Shown one piece after another: positions 12,960-57,520 of a DNA stretch of 64,000 nucleotides. Origin of the DNA: Spizellomyces punctatus DAOM BR117 (lineage: Eukaryota); assembly GCA_000182565.2 (NCBI GenBank), contig KQ257451.1. One strand, 5' to 3'. The position numbers and the translations under genes were made by a program. The notes beneath the pieces were generated by a model. It ran no database searches. It was not told where the DNA came from and was given only the letters and a program-made list of their open reading frames with translations. Position 1 is the first letter of the stretch. Each line of letters opens with the position of its first letter.

Positions 12960-14783
12960 TCATGGTGAGTCAAGCATGTATGCAATCGCCGCTTCGACGT
13001 TGCCACCCTATCCAAAGATAAAAGTCAGGCTCAACTGAACTTATAAAATGACCCACTCTTGAAGACTCACGGCGGCAAGCAGGGCTCGAATACATCTATC
13101 TTTTTCCTGAAGCGATAAGACCACTGGAGCGTGAGTAGTTTTGCAATGGTAAGCAGGTATCTAAGATCTCACCTCAAAGCCCATATCGCGTAATGTATTC
13201 TTCACAAAAATGGTACAATGAGATCGCAGAAGAGATGCTATATGATAAACACATGCTTCATACCAATTGCTCGGCAAACCGCTCTTCGTGTGATTCAGTC
13301 AAGGACTGTGGCTCGACTTGTGGTTGAGCTGGCGCTGCCGTTGACGCTGTCAGCGGTTCAAATGGCTGAAATGCGCCCTGAAGTTGTTGGATTTGTTGCA
13401 TCATGCTCCCAAAGTCGAAATGTGGTGCTGCAAGAGATGGGGCGGTAGTTGAGGACGGTGTATTCGGTGCGGCCGTCGACGGGGGCTATTGCAGCGAGGG
13501 TTAGTAATCAGACCGACCAAACTAAAGATGATTTAATAGATTAACCTGCAAGAAGTTAAGGGAGTTGAAAAGAGCAGGATTTCCAAATGGTGCCGTGAAT
13601 GGTGACGAGGGCAAGGATGCAGAGTTGGAAGTAGGGGATGTGGTTGGCGGTGGCGCCCAGGGATTTGGAAGAGCCTGGTTGTTGATTCCCTCGCTTGATG
13701 ATCGTTGTTGCGCACCCAGTAACTCTGCAAACCGACGATTTGCCTCGTCTATAGAATCCCTTCATTAGACGTTCAAACACGTCTATTTGACTGGTTGATT
13801 ATTGGACGCACCTGTGCTCGTGTCCTCTTCCCGCATTTGACTTAAAGGTGCTTGTATATCGTGATATATGGAACTTAGAGCATTGAATCCACCAGGGATG
13901 TTTTCGATGTTCAGCAGCTGCCTGTCTGTCCTCACGTCATGTCACTTTTGGTTCAAATCCAGATTCCAGAAGTAAGGCATCCGAGGTAACATACCAACAT
14001 TTCTCATCATTTCCTGGCTCTAAATTTTTCATACGATATTAGATGGTTAAAGCAATCACGACATGCAAAGCCCACAGGACGGCATACAAACCAATGCAGG
14101 GTTCCTCATAGTGTCGAGCATCTCTCTTAGGAACTACACCATCGATGACAAAAGTCAGCTACATTCGCCAGATCCAATTAATTTTCGCTTTGACGATTAC
14201 CCGAGGATCATTCAGCGTTTGGCGAAGAGAGGGATTCGACTCAGCTAAGCGTGCAATCCTTGGGTCGTTCTCCAACATGGTACGCATAAATTCTGGATTC
14301 TCCAACATACTTCGGACAAAAGGATTTTCTAACAAGGCGCTCATATCTATTTGCAGACGGTTAATAGATTTCGGTGTTAAGGGCCAGGTTACATCTATCG
14401 CTGCAGCCACCTGGAAGTCCAAAAGCATTACGAGCCGCGCCTCCTGCTCCTGGAACGTTATGACCGGCTGCCGCCGCAGTACTTGCTTCTTCCGCAGCAC
14501 GATTTCTGGCTAATTTTGTAGCATGAACTGTGATTCCATCTTTCAATCCGAGCGACGATACTGATTCTTCATCGTCCTTGAGCACGCGGCCAGCATAAAC
14601 TAGGCGGATCTCGTCCAATGGTACATTGACGCGGGATGCCAGTTGAGCTTTCAGTTCTGCAAGTGTCTCTTTCTCAGGATCTGTAACTCTAAGTGTGATG
14701 TCGGTTCCAACATCGCCTAGCCCGGGTGCTAGACGGAACCGGATGTTGATGGGCGATGAACTGGCATCAGTGGAGCTAGACAT
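12960..14783 (-). CDS. DSK2: Ubiquilin/Dsk2 (UBL-STI1-UBA), multi-exon
   Basis: UBL IRLVYAGRVLKDDE; STI1 repeats LLENPFVRSMLENPEFMR; NIENIPGGFNAL; UBA LRDMGF...ALLAA/GGNVEAAIAYML. Confidence 0.9.
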
Positions 14784-14789
14784 AATCTC

Positions 14790-14880
14790 TGTGTAGGCTG
14801 TTTCTAGTGTAGAGGTGACAGAAACTGGCACTAGCTACTACACCAGGGAATAAACCGGCGACAACCGGTTCGGAAAAGCC
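14790..14880 (-). ncRNA. Putative Fanzor omegaRNA, copy 1 (scaffold ~14805-14880 plus ~15-nt flank-derived guide GAAACAGCCUACACA)
   Basis: Minus strand GGCTTTTCCGAACCGGTTGTCGCCGGTTTATTCCCTGGTGTAGTAGCTAGTGCCAGTTTCTGTCACCTCTACACTA; stems AACCGG/CCGGTT and TGGTGTAG/CTACACTA; 74/76 identical to copy 2; resembles the SpuFz1 omegaRNA as recalled. Ends are inferred. Confidence 0.8.
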
Positions 14881-15518
14881 AACTAAGCTACTACTAGGCA
14901 ATTATACACGCAATACGTAACGGTTGTTTCTAACCGGATAATTGCCCACCACCACACGCGGTCCCTACTAGGCCTTGATCTGGAACTCTTGATGGCATTG
15001 AAGGCATCCAGGAGTGAATCGACTGGGCAGCATCACAAGCTGGGGGATTTTCAGTGACAAGGCTTGGAGACTAAAAACTGCATGTCAGTAACAGAATAAC
15101 ATGAAAAGAGATGATGCCATTGGTACATACCAACCAAGCTCAACTAATGTGGCAGTATAATAGCAGCTTTGTTGGTTCCGAGTGATTGTTGCTGGTTCCA
15201 GTTGGTTGTAGTCATCGGCAGGGCAAGGTGCAATGTGGGTCGTGATGAGTGTTGCGCAGATGGTTTGAGAGTTGAGGAACTGGTGAGGAAGGGAAGAGAC
15301 AGGAAAGGCCCCCCTTTTATAGACCTTGAGTGTGGCAAATGGGGTCCAGCTGAAAAAAAAAAAAAAAAAAAAACATTACATTAGCATGCCACACCGCAGT
15401 TTGGAGAACATTAGCAGGACGTCTTTCAGCGATGGGGGTTCTGATTATGCAATATAATTAACCGGATTGATCCGGATGATAATGGGTACTAGTGCCATTT
15501 ACTGTCAGCTCCACACTA
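14805..15518 (-). mobile_element. Non-autonomous TIR element, Fanzor 'ghost' copy 1
   Basis: 30-bp TIRs 14805-14834 and 15489-15518 (26/30 match, both ending in TA); homologous to 55745-56435; minus-strand 5' flank reads CATA (15517-15520); no long ORF. Confidence 0.88.
15314..15321 (-). promoter_or_regulatory. TATA box (TATAAAAG) inside ghost element 1, followed by a CT-rich tract
   Basis: AAGGTCTATAAAAGGGGGGCCTT is conserved in both copies; the same TATAAAAG core lies upstream of GAPDH. Confidence 0.6.
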
Positions 15519-15691
15519 TGTACTGCAAACAGCGTTTCAAATTACGCGTCATTAGTCATTTGAATTTCTGGAACGTTTGGTTCTTGGTAACAATTGCAAG
15601 GGAAGATCCAAAGAGCTTTTGTTCGTTTTCAAGACTTGCCACGGATCTTGCTCCTGGGGTCGGAAATCTCAACGACGGTTGCAAAAGAGAG

Positions 15692-17438
15692 ATGGCTCGT
15701 CCTCGCAAAGTTTTTGCAGAGCAACCACGCCCACCAACCAACATTGAAAGCAAGTTAGAGAACCTTGCTCGACTGGCCAAAACTGGACGAAGATCTCGTG
15801 CTCAAGCTCCGGATGAGGCACCTATCTCCCGCAATGGCCGACCAAAGAGATTTTCCGTGGACAGAGAAGACAGCGACGAAGCTGCAGGTGATAGTTTTCA
15901 CAATGGAAATGAACTACCAGCAGCGACACTTGGGAAGCGATACAGACAGGATGACGCTGACTTGCAATCAATGGAACCAGCCACTCGCCGTCGCGTTGGT
16001 GTGAGGGCAGAAGAGAACTATTATGCATCTGCGAAATGTAAGTTGACATCCGCGTCAGTTGGTGTCAGACACGACATCTGTTGAGGGAAAGGGGCGCATG
16101 TTATTCAACTATGCTGTTATAGGGTCACAATTTCCGCAGCATGATGCTATGATGGCACAAAGATCTTCTCTAAGCCATACCATTACACAGGATTACAACC
16201 CAAAAGACTACAATATACCGCCATACTTTTTCCTCTCAAAGGATGGAATGATAGCTACTTTTACCTGGCATCCCCCGAAACGTGTGCGTTTTCGTTCTCA
16301 ATATTCTTGGAAAGAACAAGGAAGGATACTTACGGTATAATTGGATAATATTCGGAACCCACACGCATAGTCATCTAAGTGGTGGATCCGCTTCCACGTA
16401 CTTACAGATCTGCAGCGATATCCAGTCAGAAGAAAACACATACCAAGAATATGACTCCGTCAAAGCTCCCCGCCTTCTCTCATTTCTGAGGTCTCATTTG
16501 CAAAAATGCATACGAAGAACAAACGGACAGCTGGCCTATCGCACTGCATACCAACTGATCAAGCCAGATGCTGCTGAATTGATTCGACAGCTACCAATGA
16601 TCGTGTTGGAGGACGCGATCCCAAATCCCCAGTATCCTGGTATGTAAAGGCTAAATTTGACGTGGCTTCATACTCAATAAGCTTCTGCAGGTCTAATATG
16701 GCTAGCATGTGCGACGGAGAAAGGGTTTCGGCCACCGATATCGATCATAGAGTGGCTGCTGGGATATGTTAGGGCTGTTGCTGACAGCCCATTTCGAGAA
16801 ACCTTTGAGGCGTCTGCCTCGTCCGACCCGCTGCAACTGGTGTCCAGATCGGTTGCTGAGCTGCCGACATCGAAGCGCGACCTGCTCTATGCCCTTCAAC
16901 TGACAAAAAGCCTACAGACATCGGCAGGTGAGCTCCAAATGCGGTGTTCAGACTGGTAGCGCTTTTGTTCATAGTGCTGTTCACTTTCTCAGGGAATAGA
17001 TTTTTGATTGACAAAACCACGCGAGCTTGGTTTGAGCGCATGCGGTCAGACAGTAATGACAACCATTATTCTAAAACTCTGTATCAAGTCCATCATGTGC
17101 CAATCGATGGGGTGCCGAATCTTCAGCCAGATGAGCTGGAACTCTCAGCTGTGGATCCATGCTGCTCCGATATATTGGACATTTTGCGTCAAGAACTGGA
17201 TGAAGAAGATCAGCAGCGATGGCCGGACGATGTAGTTCTTAAACATATGCTCAACGAGAAGAGTTGTGAGCTCCGTACAAAGATGTTAGTACCAGCAGTC
17301 TTTGGAGGGAGCGAATCAAAGAGTGCGGAAAAGCCACCTGGTGTAAATAGGATGGAGGTGGATTTGTTATGGAGAAAGTACAAAGAGAAGATTAGCCAGG
17401 CACAAAGGAGAATATTAAGGGGCGCCATCAGTAAGTGA
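15692..17438 (+). CDS. Hypothetical protein with an MgsA/RarA C-terminal-like helical motif, multi-exon
   Basis: Spliceable ORFs 15692-16036, ~16123-16337, ~16410-16640, ~16691-16927, ~16994-17438; LRSHLQKCIRR...IRQLPMIVLEDA. Confidence 0.6.
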
Positions 17439-54294: not shown

Positions 54295-55726
<1,432 letters not shown>

Positions 55727-55729
55727 TCT

Positions 55730-55820
55730 GATGTTACATGTATTTAGTGTAGAGGTGACAGAAACTGGCACTAGCTACTACACCAGGGAATAAACCAGCG
55801 ACAACTGGTTCGGAAAAGCC
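55730..55820 (-). ncRNA. Putative Fanzor omegaRNA, copy 2 (scaffold ~55745-55820 plus guide AAUACAUGUAACAUC)
   Basis: Same scaffold as copy 1 apart from the compensatory pair AACCAG/CTGGTT. Ends are inferred. Confidence 0.8.
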
Positions 55821-56435
55821 GAGTAATTCCCTCCTTACAACCAACCAACTACCACTAGGCCCAATTACACATGCAATACATTACGGTTGTTTCTAACCGG
55901 GTAACTAAGCCCACCACACGAGAGAAATCCTACTAAGCCCTTGATTCCGAAATTCTTTAGTCAGAGGATGTTCAGATACTAATTAAACCAGAATTAGACT
56001 CGGAATACACATGGGAAAATACAAAGATAATGCATACCTGCAATCATTGCAATATAGTAGTAGCAGCGTTTGCAAGGGGTTATGTTGTTTTTGTCGGGAG
56101 GGCAAGGTCCTCAACACCAGAGCGGCATTCTCATGATGGACTTGAGAGTGTTGCTTGAACGTTGCGCAGATGCTTTGAGTCGAGGATGGGTAAAGAGGAA
56201 AGAGGGAAGAGACAGTGAAGGCCCCCCTTTTATAGACCTTCCGCATGCACCTCACCGCAGTTTAAAAAAAGAAAAAAATACGTTAGCATGCCACACTGCA
56301 GTTTGGAGTTTGGAGAACATTAGCATGCCACACCAATCTGAGCGATAGATGGGGGTTCTGATTATGCGATATGATTAACTGGATTGATCCGGATAATAAT
56401 GGGTCCTAGTGCCATTTTCAATCACCTACACACTA
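55745..56435 (-). mobile_element. Non-autonomous TIR element, Fanzor 'ghost' copy 2
   Basis: 30-bp TIRs 55745-55774 and 56406-56435 (25/30, ending in TA); termini, TATA region and A-tract colinear with copy 1; minus-strand 5' flank reads TATA. Confidence 0.88.
56227..56234 (-). promoter_or_regulatory. TATA box inside ghost element 2
   Basis: AAGGTCTATAAAAGGGGGGCCTT, identical to copy 1. Confidence 0.6.
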
Positions 56436-56549: not shown

Positions 56550-57520
56550 CTATGAGATTGTACCAGACAAGATTGCCTCCACCGCCTGTCCTTCATCGCC
56601 TTCAAATTGTCGTAAGGCTTTAACAACCAATCCTCGCTCAAACCCCATTTCACATACTCTTGAGATTGACCCTTGGTCCAGCCCCACCTCGTCTACGCCC
56701 ACCGTTTTCCCAATCTGATCGACGGAAGAACCCCCAATAGCATGTATCTGGGTCCATTCCCTTGCAGTCTTCTCAAAGTCCGCTCGTGCCGACAGGTAGT
56801 GTTTCGCAACCTCCGCGTCCTACAACATCTATTTAGAATACGCCTTTCTTGAAGTAATAGGACTGACAAAAGGATAATCCACGCACCTGCGGATTGTCCG
56901 GTGCTGGATCGCAAAGCAGCGACTGCAGGGATATTAGCTGATCACAGCACCTTTCAGTGTTACAAGCCACAGGCACAGAATCACAAACCATGCATCTCCA
57001 AACATACCACAGTTTTCAAGGTCAGGACAGGACTCCATTCATCTTTCAAAATGTCCAAGCCTATTCACCAGCCGCCACGCGATAAGCGACCATCCCAATC
57101 ATGCTGGGAGAAAGTTGGTTTGATGAGACTCACATATAGCGCCTGTTTGCGAAGAGATGTTTGGATGGTAGACTGGTGTCTCAAATCTCATTTTTGGGGG
57201 CTAGTTCACATGAGCATTGTCAACAATCTCCATTCCAGGCGAACGGCCAAACTACGGCGCGGCACACCTTGAAAGGATAGTCGTCTGGTAACTCTATGTC
57301 CACAAGAAACTGTCCACCTTCGTATGGGCTACCCTGCGGCCCTGCAATCATTCCTTTAAGGCGACCTAGCGTCGGCGATTCAGCTGCGTATAGTGGGATG
57401 ATTGGGTGTATCCTGTGTGGTCTTACATAGATTGTCTCCGACAACTTGCACATATACATTGGCAGTTTTGTCCGACTGCACTTGACGGATTTCCCTCTCT
57501 ATTCGTCGTGCGTCTGGCAT
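56550..57520 (-). CDS. UBC1: Ubiquitin-conjugating enzyme E2 with C-terminal UBA
   Basis: [70 protein letters not shown]. Confidence 0.92.

What the first reader, a model, noticed from the sequence alone, without database searches (positions are those of the whole stretch)
14852..14871. Compensatory base-pair change supports a conserved RNA stem
The only two differences in the 76-nt termini are 14857 g vs 55797 a and 14866 c vs 55806 t. On the minus strand these pair with each other: AACCGG-uugucg-CCGGUU becomes AACCAG-uugucg-CUGGUU (G-C to A-U). The stem lies outside the TIR, so transposase binding to the TIR does not explain it. This points to selection on a folded RNA in elements that have no ORF. 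It is only one covarying pair from two sequences.
Basis: seen in the sequence. Interest (0 to 1): 0.8.

Follow-up and report, generated by a model that had tools for sequence, protein, structure and literature searches.

The report
Fanzor guide-RNA stem in ORF-less transposons

Summary
Observation confirmed. Two ORF-less TIR elements (14805-15518 and 55745-56435) share a 76-nt end with 2 differences, 14857 G/A and 14866 C/T. These two positions pair with each other in a hairpin.

Interpretation supported, but mainly by outside evidence. On the minus strand, 14879-14805 fits the published 75-nt omegaRNA scaffold of Spizellomyces punctatus Fanzor1 and its "ghost Spu-1" loci:
- 30-nt inverted repeats and no ORF
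- CA next to the 5' repeat, giving the CATA TAM (copy A only)
- two stems with a 6-nt linker, and a 3-nt bulge in stem 2
- 15 of 18 nucleotides named in the cryo-EM description

The covariation alone is weak. Both changes are CpG transitions, and CpG columns differ about 5 times more often here. Chance compensation is about 1 in 12. With two sequences, 244 of 500 shuffles do as well.

A contig pile-up lists only three variants inside the 75-nt scaffold. All three lie in this stem, and the two single changes keep minus-strand pairing as G-U wobbles; 14866 C>T does so only if linked to 14857 A, which is unproven.

The full-family test was not possible. Novelty: already known.

The parts
14805..15518 (-). 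Ghost element copy A: 714 nt, no ORF longer than 25 aa from ATG, bounded by 30-nt inverted repeats. In the element's own orientation it reads on the window's minus strand.
14805..14879 (-). Copy A omegaRNA scaffold, 75 nt, spanning the 3' (right-end) inverted repeat. It is 73 of 75 identical to copy B.
   Evidence: description in PMC10432273
14852..14871 (-). The covarying pair is 14866:14857 (G-C here, A-U in copy B).
   Evidence: SL1 contacts described
14846..14851 (-). [quoted passage not shown]
14805..14845 (-). Stem 2, formed between subterminal sequence and the inverted repeat, with a 3-nt bulge
   Evidence: ghost stem 2 description
14805..14834 (.). Copy A right-end 30-nt inverted repeat (26 of 30 identical to the left-end repeat)
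14790..14804 (-). Predicted 14-15-nt guide of copy A (flank directly 3' of the scaffold). It lies in the leader of a ubiquitin-domain gene whose ATG is at 14783-14781 on the minus strand. Inferred, not shown.
   Evidence: guide geometry
15489..15518 (.). Copy A left-end 30-nt inverted repeat
15519..15520 (-). CA dinucleotide upstream of the 5' repeat (TG on the plus strand). With the repeat's first TA it gives CATA, the SpuFz1 TAM.
55745..56435 (-). Ghost element copy B: 691 nt, inverted repeats 25 of 30 identical. The left-end flank has TA instead of CA, giving TATA rather than CATA.
55745..55819 (-). Copy B omegaRNA scaffold. Stem-loop 1 is at 55792-55811, with the A-U pair at 55806:55797.
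55730..55744 (-). Predicted guide of copy B. It lies just past the stop codon of a WD40-repeat gene and is antisense to it. Inferred.

Best explanation
The two elements are 'ghost Spu-1' elements. These are non-autonomous derivatives of the Fanzor1-carrying Spu-1 transposon of the chytrid Spizellomyces punctatus or a very close relative. Their conserved end (14879 to 14805 and 55819 to 55745, minus strand) encodes the 75-nt scaffold of the Fanzor omegaRNA. The transcript runs 14-15 nt on into the flank, and that stretch serves as the guide. Fanzor1 protein made elsewhere in the genome binds the scaffold; stem-loop 1 sits against its RuvC and NUC/TNB domains. The RNP cuts DNA that carries a CATA TAM followed by the guide match. 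Shown in print: expression, protein binding and structure of the canonical omegaRNA, and activity of ghost scaffolds with SpuFz1 in human cells. Inferred here: that copies A and B belong to this family, that they are transcribed, and that the G-C to A-U change was kept because stem-loop 1 must stay paired.
For: 1. Architecture. Elements of 714 and 691 nt, longest ATG-ORFs 25 and 88 aa, 30-nt inverted repeats 26/30 and 25/30 identical, ends compatible with a TA duplication, and CA upstream of the 5' repeat in copy A. The published description is 30-nt IRs, about 550 nt between them, a CA motif and no Fz ORF, plus 33-bp TIRs and TA duplications.
2. A 75-nt block over the 3' repeat is 73/75 identical, while the rest of the elements is 80-88% alike. 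This matches the 'strongly conserved' omegaRNA region of ghost loci.
3. The minus-strand MFE gives two stems, a 6-nt linker and a 3-nt bulge in stem 2. The stem-1 hairpin alone has z = -3.2 (copy A) and -3.5 (copy B) on the minus strand, against -1.4 and -2.0 on the plus strand. The ghost-specific 3-nt bulge is stated.
4. Of 18 scaffold nucleotides named in the cryo-EM text (U5 C6 C7 U16 G17 U18 C19 G20 G22 A29 C32 C34 U35 G37 C40 G70 A72 A75), 15 match, allowing one 1-nt register shift between positions 20 and 29. Over the whole window only 4 of 383,520 position/shift trials reach 15, and two of those four are these copies.
5. The two mismatches C40 and G70 are U and A here and are predicted to pair (14840:14810).
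6. Host. The window's ABCF protein has its nearest full-length named relatives in Spizellomycetales, at 52-60% identity.
7. Family pile-up. Within the scaffold the only variants listed are 14857 G>A, 14866 C>T and 14869 T>C. All three are in stem 1. Each keeps minus-strand pairing as G-U or A-U, provided 14866T travels with 14857A as it does in copy B.
8. SL1 has seven pairs and a conserved protein interface in three Fz1 structures.
Against: I could not compare the window with any published omegaRNA or ghost sequence letter by letter. None is printed in the main texts (0 occurrences of four 10-nt motifs in two papers), and supplements are closed. One named nucleotide, G22, is C here in either register. 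Copy B has TATA instead of the CATA TAM. Two unrelated window sites also score 15 of 18, so that test only works at a pre-chosen site. No Fanzor gene lies in the window and no genome is held. Transcription of these two copies was not tested. The element lengths (714 and 691 nt) exceed the 'around 550 nt' conserved region given in print. The covariation itself has no statistical weight. In the pile-up, 14857A is 1.5 to 3.7 times deeper than 14866T, so many copies are uncompensated.
Confidence: 0.88

Rival explanations
1. The hairpin belongs to the omegaRNA, but the apparent compensation in copy B is a neutral coincidence. Two independent deaminations of methylated CpGs in the two CCGG sites happened to fall on facing positions. 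This rival concerns the cause of the covariation, not the identity of the element, so it can hold together with the best explanation.
For: Both changes are CG to CA/TG transitions. Between the copies, CpG columns differ in 7 of 26 cases against 14 of 250 for other columns (odds ratio 6.2, p = 0.0014). Of 11 CpGs in copy A, 5 are TG or CA in copy B. Three of the five CCGG sites of copy A are changed in copy B, including one at the other end of the element (15463) that has no partner change. Given two CpG transitions among the 4 CpGs of the terminus, a compensatory look arises about 1 time in 12 (my arithmetic). With two sequences, 244 of 500 shuffles match the observed covariation. Chytrid genomes show no sign of RIP (passage in PMC6572847), which leaves CpG decay as the likely bias.
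Against: Of the 8 CpG positions in the terminus, only the two that pair with each other reach the 5% listing threshold in the pile-up of three runs. That points to an amplified subfamily rather than random decay in each copy. The window as a whole is not CpG-depleted (observed/expected 0.90). The third listed stem variant (14869 T>C) is not at a CpG, yet it also preserves minus-strand pairing.
Confidence: 0.3
2. The compensation arose in one step through a replication template switch within the inverted repeat. This mechanism copies one arm from the other and restores perfect palindromes without selection on RNA.
For: [quoted passage not shown] The pile-up indicates that uncompensated 14857A copies exist. 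These would be the quasi-palindromic intermediate.
Against: Nothing in the data calls for it. A single-base correction cannot be told apart from an ordinary point mutation. The stem is only 6 bp.
Confidence: 0.08
3. The hairpin is a DNA-level signal and not an RNA. It would be a subterminal palindromic binding site, or a pair of AACCGG motifs, for a transposase or host factor, kept at both ends of the element.
For: AACCGG occurs 5 times in copy A, against 26 in the whole 64-kb window. A similar AACCGG-N6-CCGG hairpin lies 43-59 nt inside the other end (15460-15476), so the motif is symmetric with respect to the two ends.
Against: Independent half-sites on double-stranded DNA do not predict a compensatory change. 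The flanking conserved nucleotides match the RNA described in the cryo-EM structure. No transposase was found within Spu-1 repeats by the authors (discussion passage). The minus-strand fold is stronger than the plus-strand fold.
Confidence: 0.05

Closest known systems
Ghost Spu-1 elements of Spizellomyces punctatus (Saito et al. 2023, PMC10432273)
   Same: No Fanzor ORF, 30-nt inverted repeats, CA upstream of the 5' repeat (copy A), and a 75-nt conserved region over the 3' repeat that folds into two stems with a 3-nt bulge in stem 2. The family is high-copy (134 loci in print; contig depth over this end is tens to hundreds of times that of the unique flank).
   Different: Nothing established. 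I could not check these two loci against the published list because supplements are closed. The elements are 714 and 691 nt, against 'around 550 nt' conserved in print. Copy B has TA instead of CA.
Canonical SpuFz1 omegaRNA (cryo-EM complex described in PMC10432273 and PMC11423790)
   Same: 75-nt scaffold followed by a flank-derived guide. The UCC at the 5' end, the UGUCG loop of stem-loop 1, the A...C 6-nt linker, and U35, G37, A72 and A75 all match. In total 15 of 18 named nucleotides match.
   Different: No Fanzor gene upstream. G22 is C here. C40-G70 is U-A here. There is a one-nucleotide length difference between positions 20 and 29. Stem 2 has a bulge where the canonical RNA has an 8-nt loop.
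Bacterial TnpB omegaRNA (reRNA) of IS200/IS605 elements
   Same: A structured RNA encoded at the transposon's right end, with its guide read from the flank, working with a RuvC nuclease and a TAM at the other end. The analogy is drawn by the authors.
   Different: Eukaryotic host, TIR element with TA duplication, different scaffold, and many protein-less copies.
Fungal and plant MITEs with TA duplications (e.g. mimp, Stowaway; recalled, not tested)
   Same: Short, ORF-less, high-copy TIR elements inserted next to genes.
   Different: Ordinary MITEs are not known to carry a conserved protein-binding RNA gene at one end.

Membership tests
Ghost Spu-1 element / Fanzor1 omegaRNA | 30-nt inverted repeats at both ends | tested here: met
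   26/30 (copy A) and 25/30 (copy B) identical between the two ends. blastn gives 85% over 34 nt.
Ghost Spu-1 element / Fanzor1 omegaRNA | No Fanzor ORF between the repeats | tested here: met
   Longest ATG-ORF inside is 25 aa (A) and 88 aa (B); the elements are 714 and 691 nt.
Ghost Spu-1 element / Fanzor1 omegaRNA | CA upstream of the 5' repeat (CATA TAM) and TA target duplication | tested here: inconclusive
   Copy A has CA+TA = CATA. Copy B has TA+TA = TATA. TA is present at all four ends, but it cannot be separated from the repeat itself without an empty site.
Ghost Spu-1 element / Fanzor1 omegaRNA | Conserved 75-nt region spanning the 3' repeat | tested here: met
   73/75 identical between copies, against 80-88% elsewhere. 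No variant was listed in 14805-14856 in three runs.
Ghost Spu-1 element / Fanzor1 omegaRNA | Scaffold of two stems joined by a 6-nt linker; ghost stem 2 with a 3-nt bulge; SL1 of seven pairs | tested here: met
   Minus-strand MFE. 24 predicted pairs, 100% of cells paired. SL1 has 6 Watson-Crick pairs plus G-U closing pairs. These are predictions only.
Ghost Spu-1 element / Fanzor1 omegaRNA | Identity with nucleotides named in the solved structure | tested here: met
   15 of 18 with one register shift. 4 of 383,520 trials in the window reach 15, and 2 of these are chance sites.
Ghost Spu-1 element / Fanzor1 omegaRNA | Letter-by-letter match to a published ghost or canonical scaffold | not testable with these tools
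   The sequences are only in supplementary data, which is closed. Four 10-nt motifs are not in the main texts.
Ghost Spu-1 element / Fanzor1 omegaRNA | 88-90-nt RNA expressed, ending 14-15 nt beyond the repeat | not tested
Ghost Spu-1 element / Fanzor1 omegaRNA | Fanzor1 protein present in the genome and binding the RNA | not testable with these tools
   No genome is held. There is no candidate among the 11 ORFs of 220 aa or more in the window.
Rfam RNA families | Match to any curated covariance model | tested here: not met
   0 matches at E <= 1 in 14000-16500. No tRNA-like gene in the window.

The most novel reading that the evidence does not exclude
Ghost elements are not decaying relics. 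They are maintained as self-sufficient guide-RNA genes. On this reading, selection keeps stem-loop 1 paired through wobble and compensatory steps. Each ghost carries its own promoter, a TATAAAAG block on the same strand about 410-440 nt upstream of the scaffold that is 95% conserved between the two copies. The other end keeps a second, outward-reading SL1-like hairpin. Guides would then be placed in the leaders or trailers of host genes, as at both copies here. My data do not exclude any of this, and I saw none of it stated in the passages I read.
Probability: 0.2. Interest if true: 0.5.

Novelty: already known. Interest (0 to 1): 0.22.

Why it matters
It shows that a naive reading of raw sequence can pick out a real, protein-bound RNA stem from one compensated pair. 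It also shows why such a pair needs checking against mutation bias. Biologically it adds little. The Fanzor omegaRNA, its stem-loop 1 and the ORF-less ghost loci are already published and already used for genome editing. The small additions are natural pair-preserving variation in stem-loop 1 of ghost copies, and evidence that CpG sites in these elements mutate about five times faster than other sites.

Tried and rejected
- **Whole-genome family alignment:** no genome is held for this window.
- **Public collection scans for more copies:** a 22-nt conserved word and a degenerate 30-nt repeat pattern found 0 loci in metagenome contigs. The 22-nt word also found 0 in prokaryote genome contigs and 0 in viral contigs. 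No alignment of copies could be built, so R-scape or RNAalifold on the family was not possible.
- **Literature search with an 11-nt word of the repeat:** 22 papers, 20 listed, apparently primer hits from unrelated subjects, judging by the titles.
- **tRNA-derived SINE idea** (box A/B-like words, internal poly-A): rejected. ARAGORN found 0 genes, Rfam gave 0 matches, and both copies end exactly at an inverted repeat.
- **hAT-type element with an 8-bp duplication:** rejected, because the flanks do not repeat.
- **RIP as the mutation bias:** set aside. Changes run in both directions, and chytrids show no RIP (passage).
- **Named-nucleotide pattern as a window-wide detector:** it also picked two unrelated sites, so it is valid only at the pre-chosen place.
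- **Depth:** this is summed contig depth, not copy number. The apparent drop in copy number toward the other end of the element is not interpreted.

Full report
**What is in the sequence**

The window holds two copies of a short element with inverted ends: copy A at 14805-15518 (714 nt) and copy B at 55745-56435 (691 nt). A 40-nt word from the left end occurs exactly twice, with 0 expected in shuffles.

The left 76 nt are identical at 74 of 76 positions. The two differences are 14857 G/A and 14866 C/T. Elsewhere the copies are 80-88% alike in blocks separated by indels.

The two variable positions face each other in AACCGG-CGACAA-CCGGTT (14853-14870). The pair is G-C in copy A and A-T/U in copy B, on either strand. 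The hairpin lies outside the 30-nt inverted repeat (14805-14834).

**How much the covariation proves**

By itself it proves little.
- On the two-sequence alignment with the predicted structure, all 48 cells of 24 pairs are paired and 1 pair changes on both sides. However, 244 of 500 shuffles do as well.
- Both changes are CpG transitions inside CCGG sites.
- Across 276 reliably aligned columns, 7 of 26 CpG-associated columns differ, against 14 of 250 others (odds ratio 6.2, Fisher p = 0.0014). All 7 are CG to TG/CA changes, and 5 of copy A's 11 CpGs are decayed in copy B.
- Three of copy A's five CCGG sites are altered in copy B. One of these, at the far end (15463), has no partner change.
- The 76 nt contain four CpGs. 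Two CpG transitions would therefore hit facing positions in the right orientation about 1 time in 12 (my arithmetic).
- A replication template switch is a further non-selective route to such changes (abstract of PMC8794818).

**More copies**

- No genome is held.
- Four collection scans found nothing.

The one available view was a pile-up of assembled contigs from four coded runs at 80% likeness or more. The element end is highly repeated. In X9 the unique flank has depth 318, and the bins over the end have 72,124 to 210,494. These figures are summed contig depth, not copy number.

Within 14805-14879 only three differences reached the 5% listing threshold:

| Variant | X1 | X2 | X9 | Contigs (X1, X2, X9) |
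|---|---|---|---|---|
| 14857 G>A | 52 of 308 | 78 of 479 | 13,318 of 129,888 | 4, 7, 6 |
| 14866 C>T | 18.8 of 196 | 21 of 421 | 9,178 of 101,305 | 2, 3, 3 |
| 14869 T>C | 5 of 193 | 17.5 of 348 | 1,386 of 85,959 | 1, 3, 3 |

All three lie in the stem. 14857A is 1.5 to 3.7 times deeper than 14866T, so many copies carry the first change alone. On the minus strand, 14857A alone gives a U-G wobble and 14869C gives a G-U wobble; on the plus strand both would be A-C mismatches. Linkage between 14857 and 14866 cannot be read from this table. The pile-up probably covers only the subfamily near copies A and B.

**Identification**

The window is eukaryotic: GC is 47.7%, genes have introns, and neighbouring ORFs carry ubiquitin, WD40 and UBA domains. 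Its ABCF protein has its nearest full-length named relatives in Spizellomycetales chytrids, at 52-60% identity.

A literature search on that lineage led to three sources.
- **Bao and Jurka 2013** (PMC3627910; passages) describe the SPu-1 element of Spizellomyces punctatus: about 2.1 kb, 33-bp TIRs, putative TA duplications, encoding a Fanzor1 protein.
- **Saito et al. 2023** (PMC10432273; sections 7 and 10 read in full; further passages) report 42 Fz loci and 134 "ghost Spu-1" loci that lack the ORF. The ghost loci have 30-nt inverted repeats, about 550 nt between them, and a conserved CA upstream of the 5' repeat. A 75-nt conserved region over the 3' repeat is the omegaRNA scaffold, made of two stems and a 6-nt linker, followed by a 14-15-nt guide read from the flank. 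Ghost scaffolds have a 3-nt bulge in stem 2 and support SpuFz1 editing in human cells.
- **A 2026 paper** (PMC13434818; section 8 read in full; passages) counts 126 unique ghost scaffolds of 74-76 nt.

**Fit of the window to that description**

- In the element's own orientation (window minus strand), copy A has 30-nt repeats 26/30 identical. CA lies directly upstream of the 5' repeat, giving CATA, which is the SpuFz1 TAM. There is no ORF above 25 aa.
- The minus strand 14879 to 14805 folds into an 8-pair hairpin (6 Watson-Crick pairs plus two wobbles), a 6-nt spacer, and a second stem that uses the inverted repeat and has a 3-nt bulge.
- The hairpin alone has z = -3.2 (copy A) and -3.5 (copy B) on the minus strand, against -1.4 and -2.0 on the plus strand.
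- Of the 18 scaffold nucleotides named in the cryo-EM text, 15 are the same here if one 1-nt length difference is allowed between positions 20 and 29. The matches include U5 C6 C7, the loop U16 G17 U18 C19 G20, A29, C32, C34, U35, G37, A72 and A75.
- Across the whole window, 4 of 383,520 position/shift trials reach 15. Two are these copies and two are unrelated sites. The match is meaningful at the pre-chosen place, but the pattern is not a detector.
- Two of the three mismatches, C40 and G70, are U and A here and are predicted to pair with each other (14840:14810).
- Xu et al. 2024 (PMC11423790; passages) state that SL1 has seven base pairs and the same protein interface in three Fz1 structures, and that the region beyond SL1 is less constrained.

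The covarying pair lies in the part of the RNA that contacts the nuclease.

**Mechanism, and what is shown or inferred**

Shown in print for the canonical locus: an 88-90-nt RNA in the native organism, co-purification with SpuFz1, a 2.7 A structure, and TAM-dependent cleavage. Also shown: ghost scaffolds work with SpuFz1 in human cells.

Inferred here:
- Copies A and B are members of this family.
- They are transcribed on the minus strand.
- Their guides are 14804-14790 and 55744-55730.
- The A-U state of copy B, present in roughly 5-10% of the piled-up depth, was inherited from a source copy in which pairing mattered.

Points that count against selection acting on copy B in place:
- Copy B has TATA instead of CATA at the TAM.
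- It has lost three CCGG sites.
- Mutating any TAM base abolished cleavage in vitro (passage).

**Limits**

- No published scaffold sequence could be compared letter by letter. Those files would settle both membership and the covariation test.
- No Fanzor gene lies in the window.
- Rfam has no matching family.
- Expression of these two loci was not examined.

**Verdict**

The thing is already known: a Fanzor omegaRNA stem-loop in ghost Spu-1 elements. Interest is low. The minor additions are pair-preserving natural variation in SL1 and a CpG mutation bias in these elements.

Noticed in passing
window 15290-15327 and 56203-56240 (minus strand): This is the best-conserved internal block of the two elements (95% over 38 nt, against 80-88% around it). 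On the minus strand it reads ...GGTCTATAAAAGGGGGGCC..., a TATA-box-like word on the same strand as the omegaRNA, about 410-440 nt upstream of the scaffold. It could be an element-borne promoter. Not tested.
   Followed up: partly
window 15460-15476 and 56377-56393: The other (left) end of each element carries a similar AACCGG-ATTGAT-CCGG hairpin 43-59 nt from the terminus, reading outward on the plus strand. There is no stem-2 partner. In copy B one CCGG is CTGG, which keeps a U-G wobble on the outward strand only (fold energies -8.6 and -6.4 on the plus strand, -6.6 and -2.2 on the minus strand).
   Followed up: partly
window 14805-15518 vs 55745-56435: CpG sites differ between the two copies about five times more often than other sites (7/26 vs 14/250), and all these differences are transitions. 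The window overall is not CpG-depleted (observed/expected 0.90). This suggests cytosine methylation targeted to these repeats.
   Followed up: yes
window 14781-14804: Copy A ends 22 nt upstream of the ATG (14783-14781, minus strand) of a gene with a ubiquitin-family domain (PF00240, E = 2.5e-12). The predicted guide therefore lies in that gene's leader, and any read-out transcript from the element would run into the gene in sense.
   Followed up: partly
window 55547-55744: Copy B starts 18 nt after the stop codon of a WD40-repeat gene on the plus strand. Its predicted guide is antisense to that gene's 3' trailer. A UBA-domain ORF lies on the other side (56550-56819, minus strand).
   Followed up: partly
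window 15350-15373 and 56264-56280: There is an internal A-rich run (about 21 A in copy A, interrupted in copy B) inside both elements. Read laying skipped it as a repeat (15345-15387).
   Followed up: no
window 14840:14810: The base pair given as C40-G70 in the published canonical omegaRNA is U-A in both ghost copies here. This is a second apparent compensatory difference, in the part of stem 2 reported as dispensable.
   Followed up: partly
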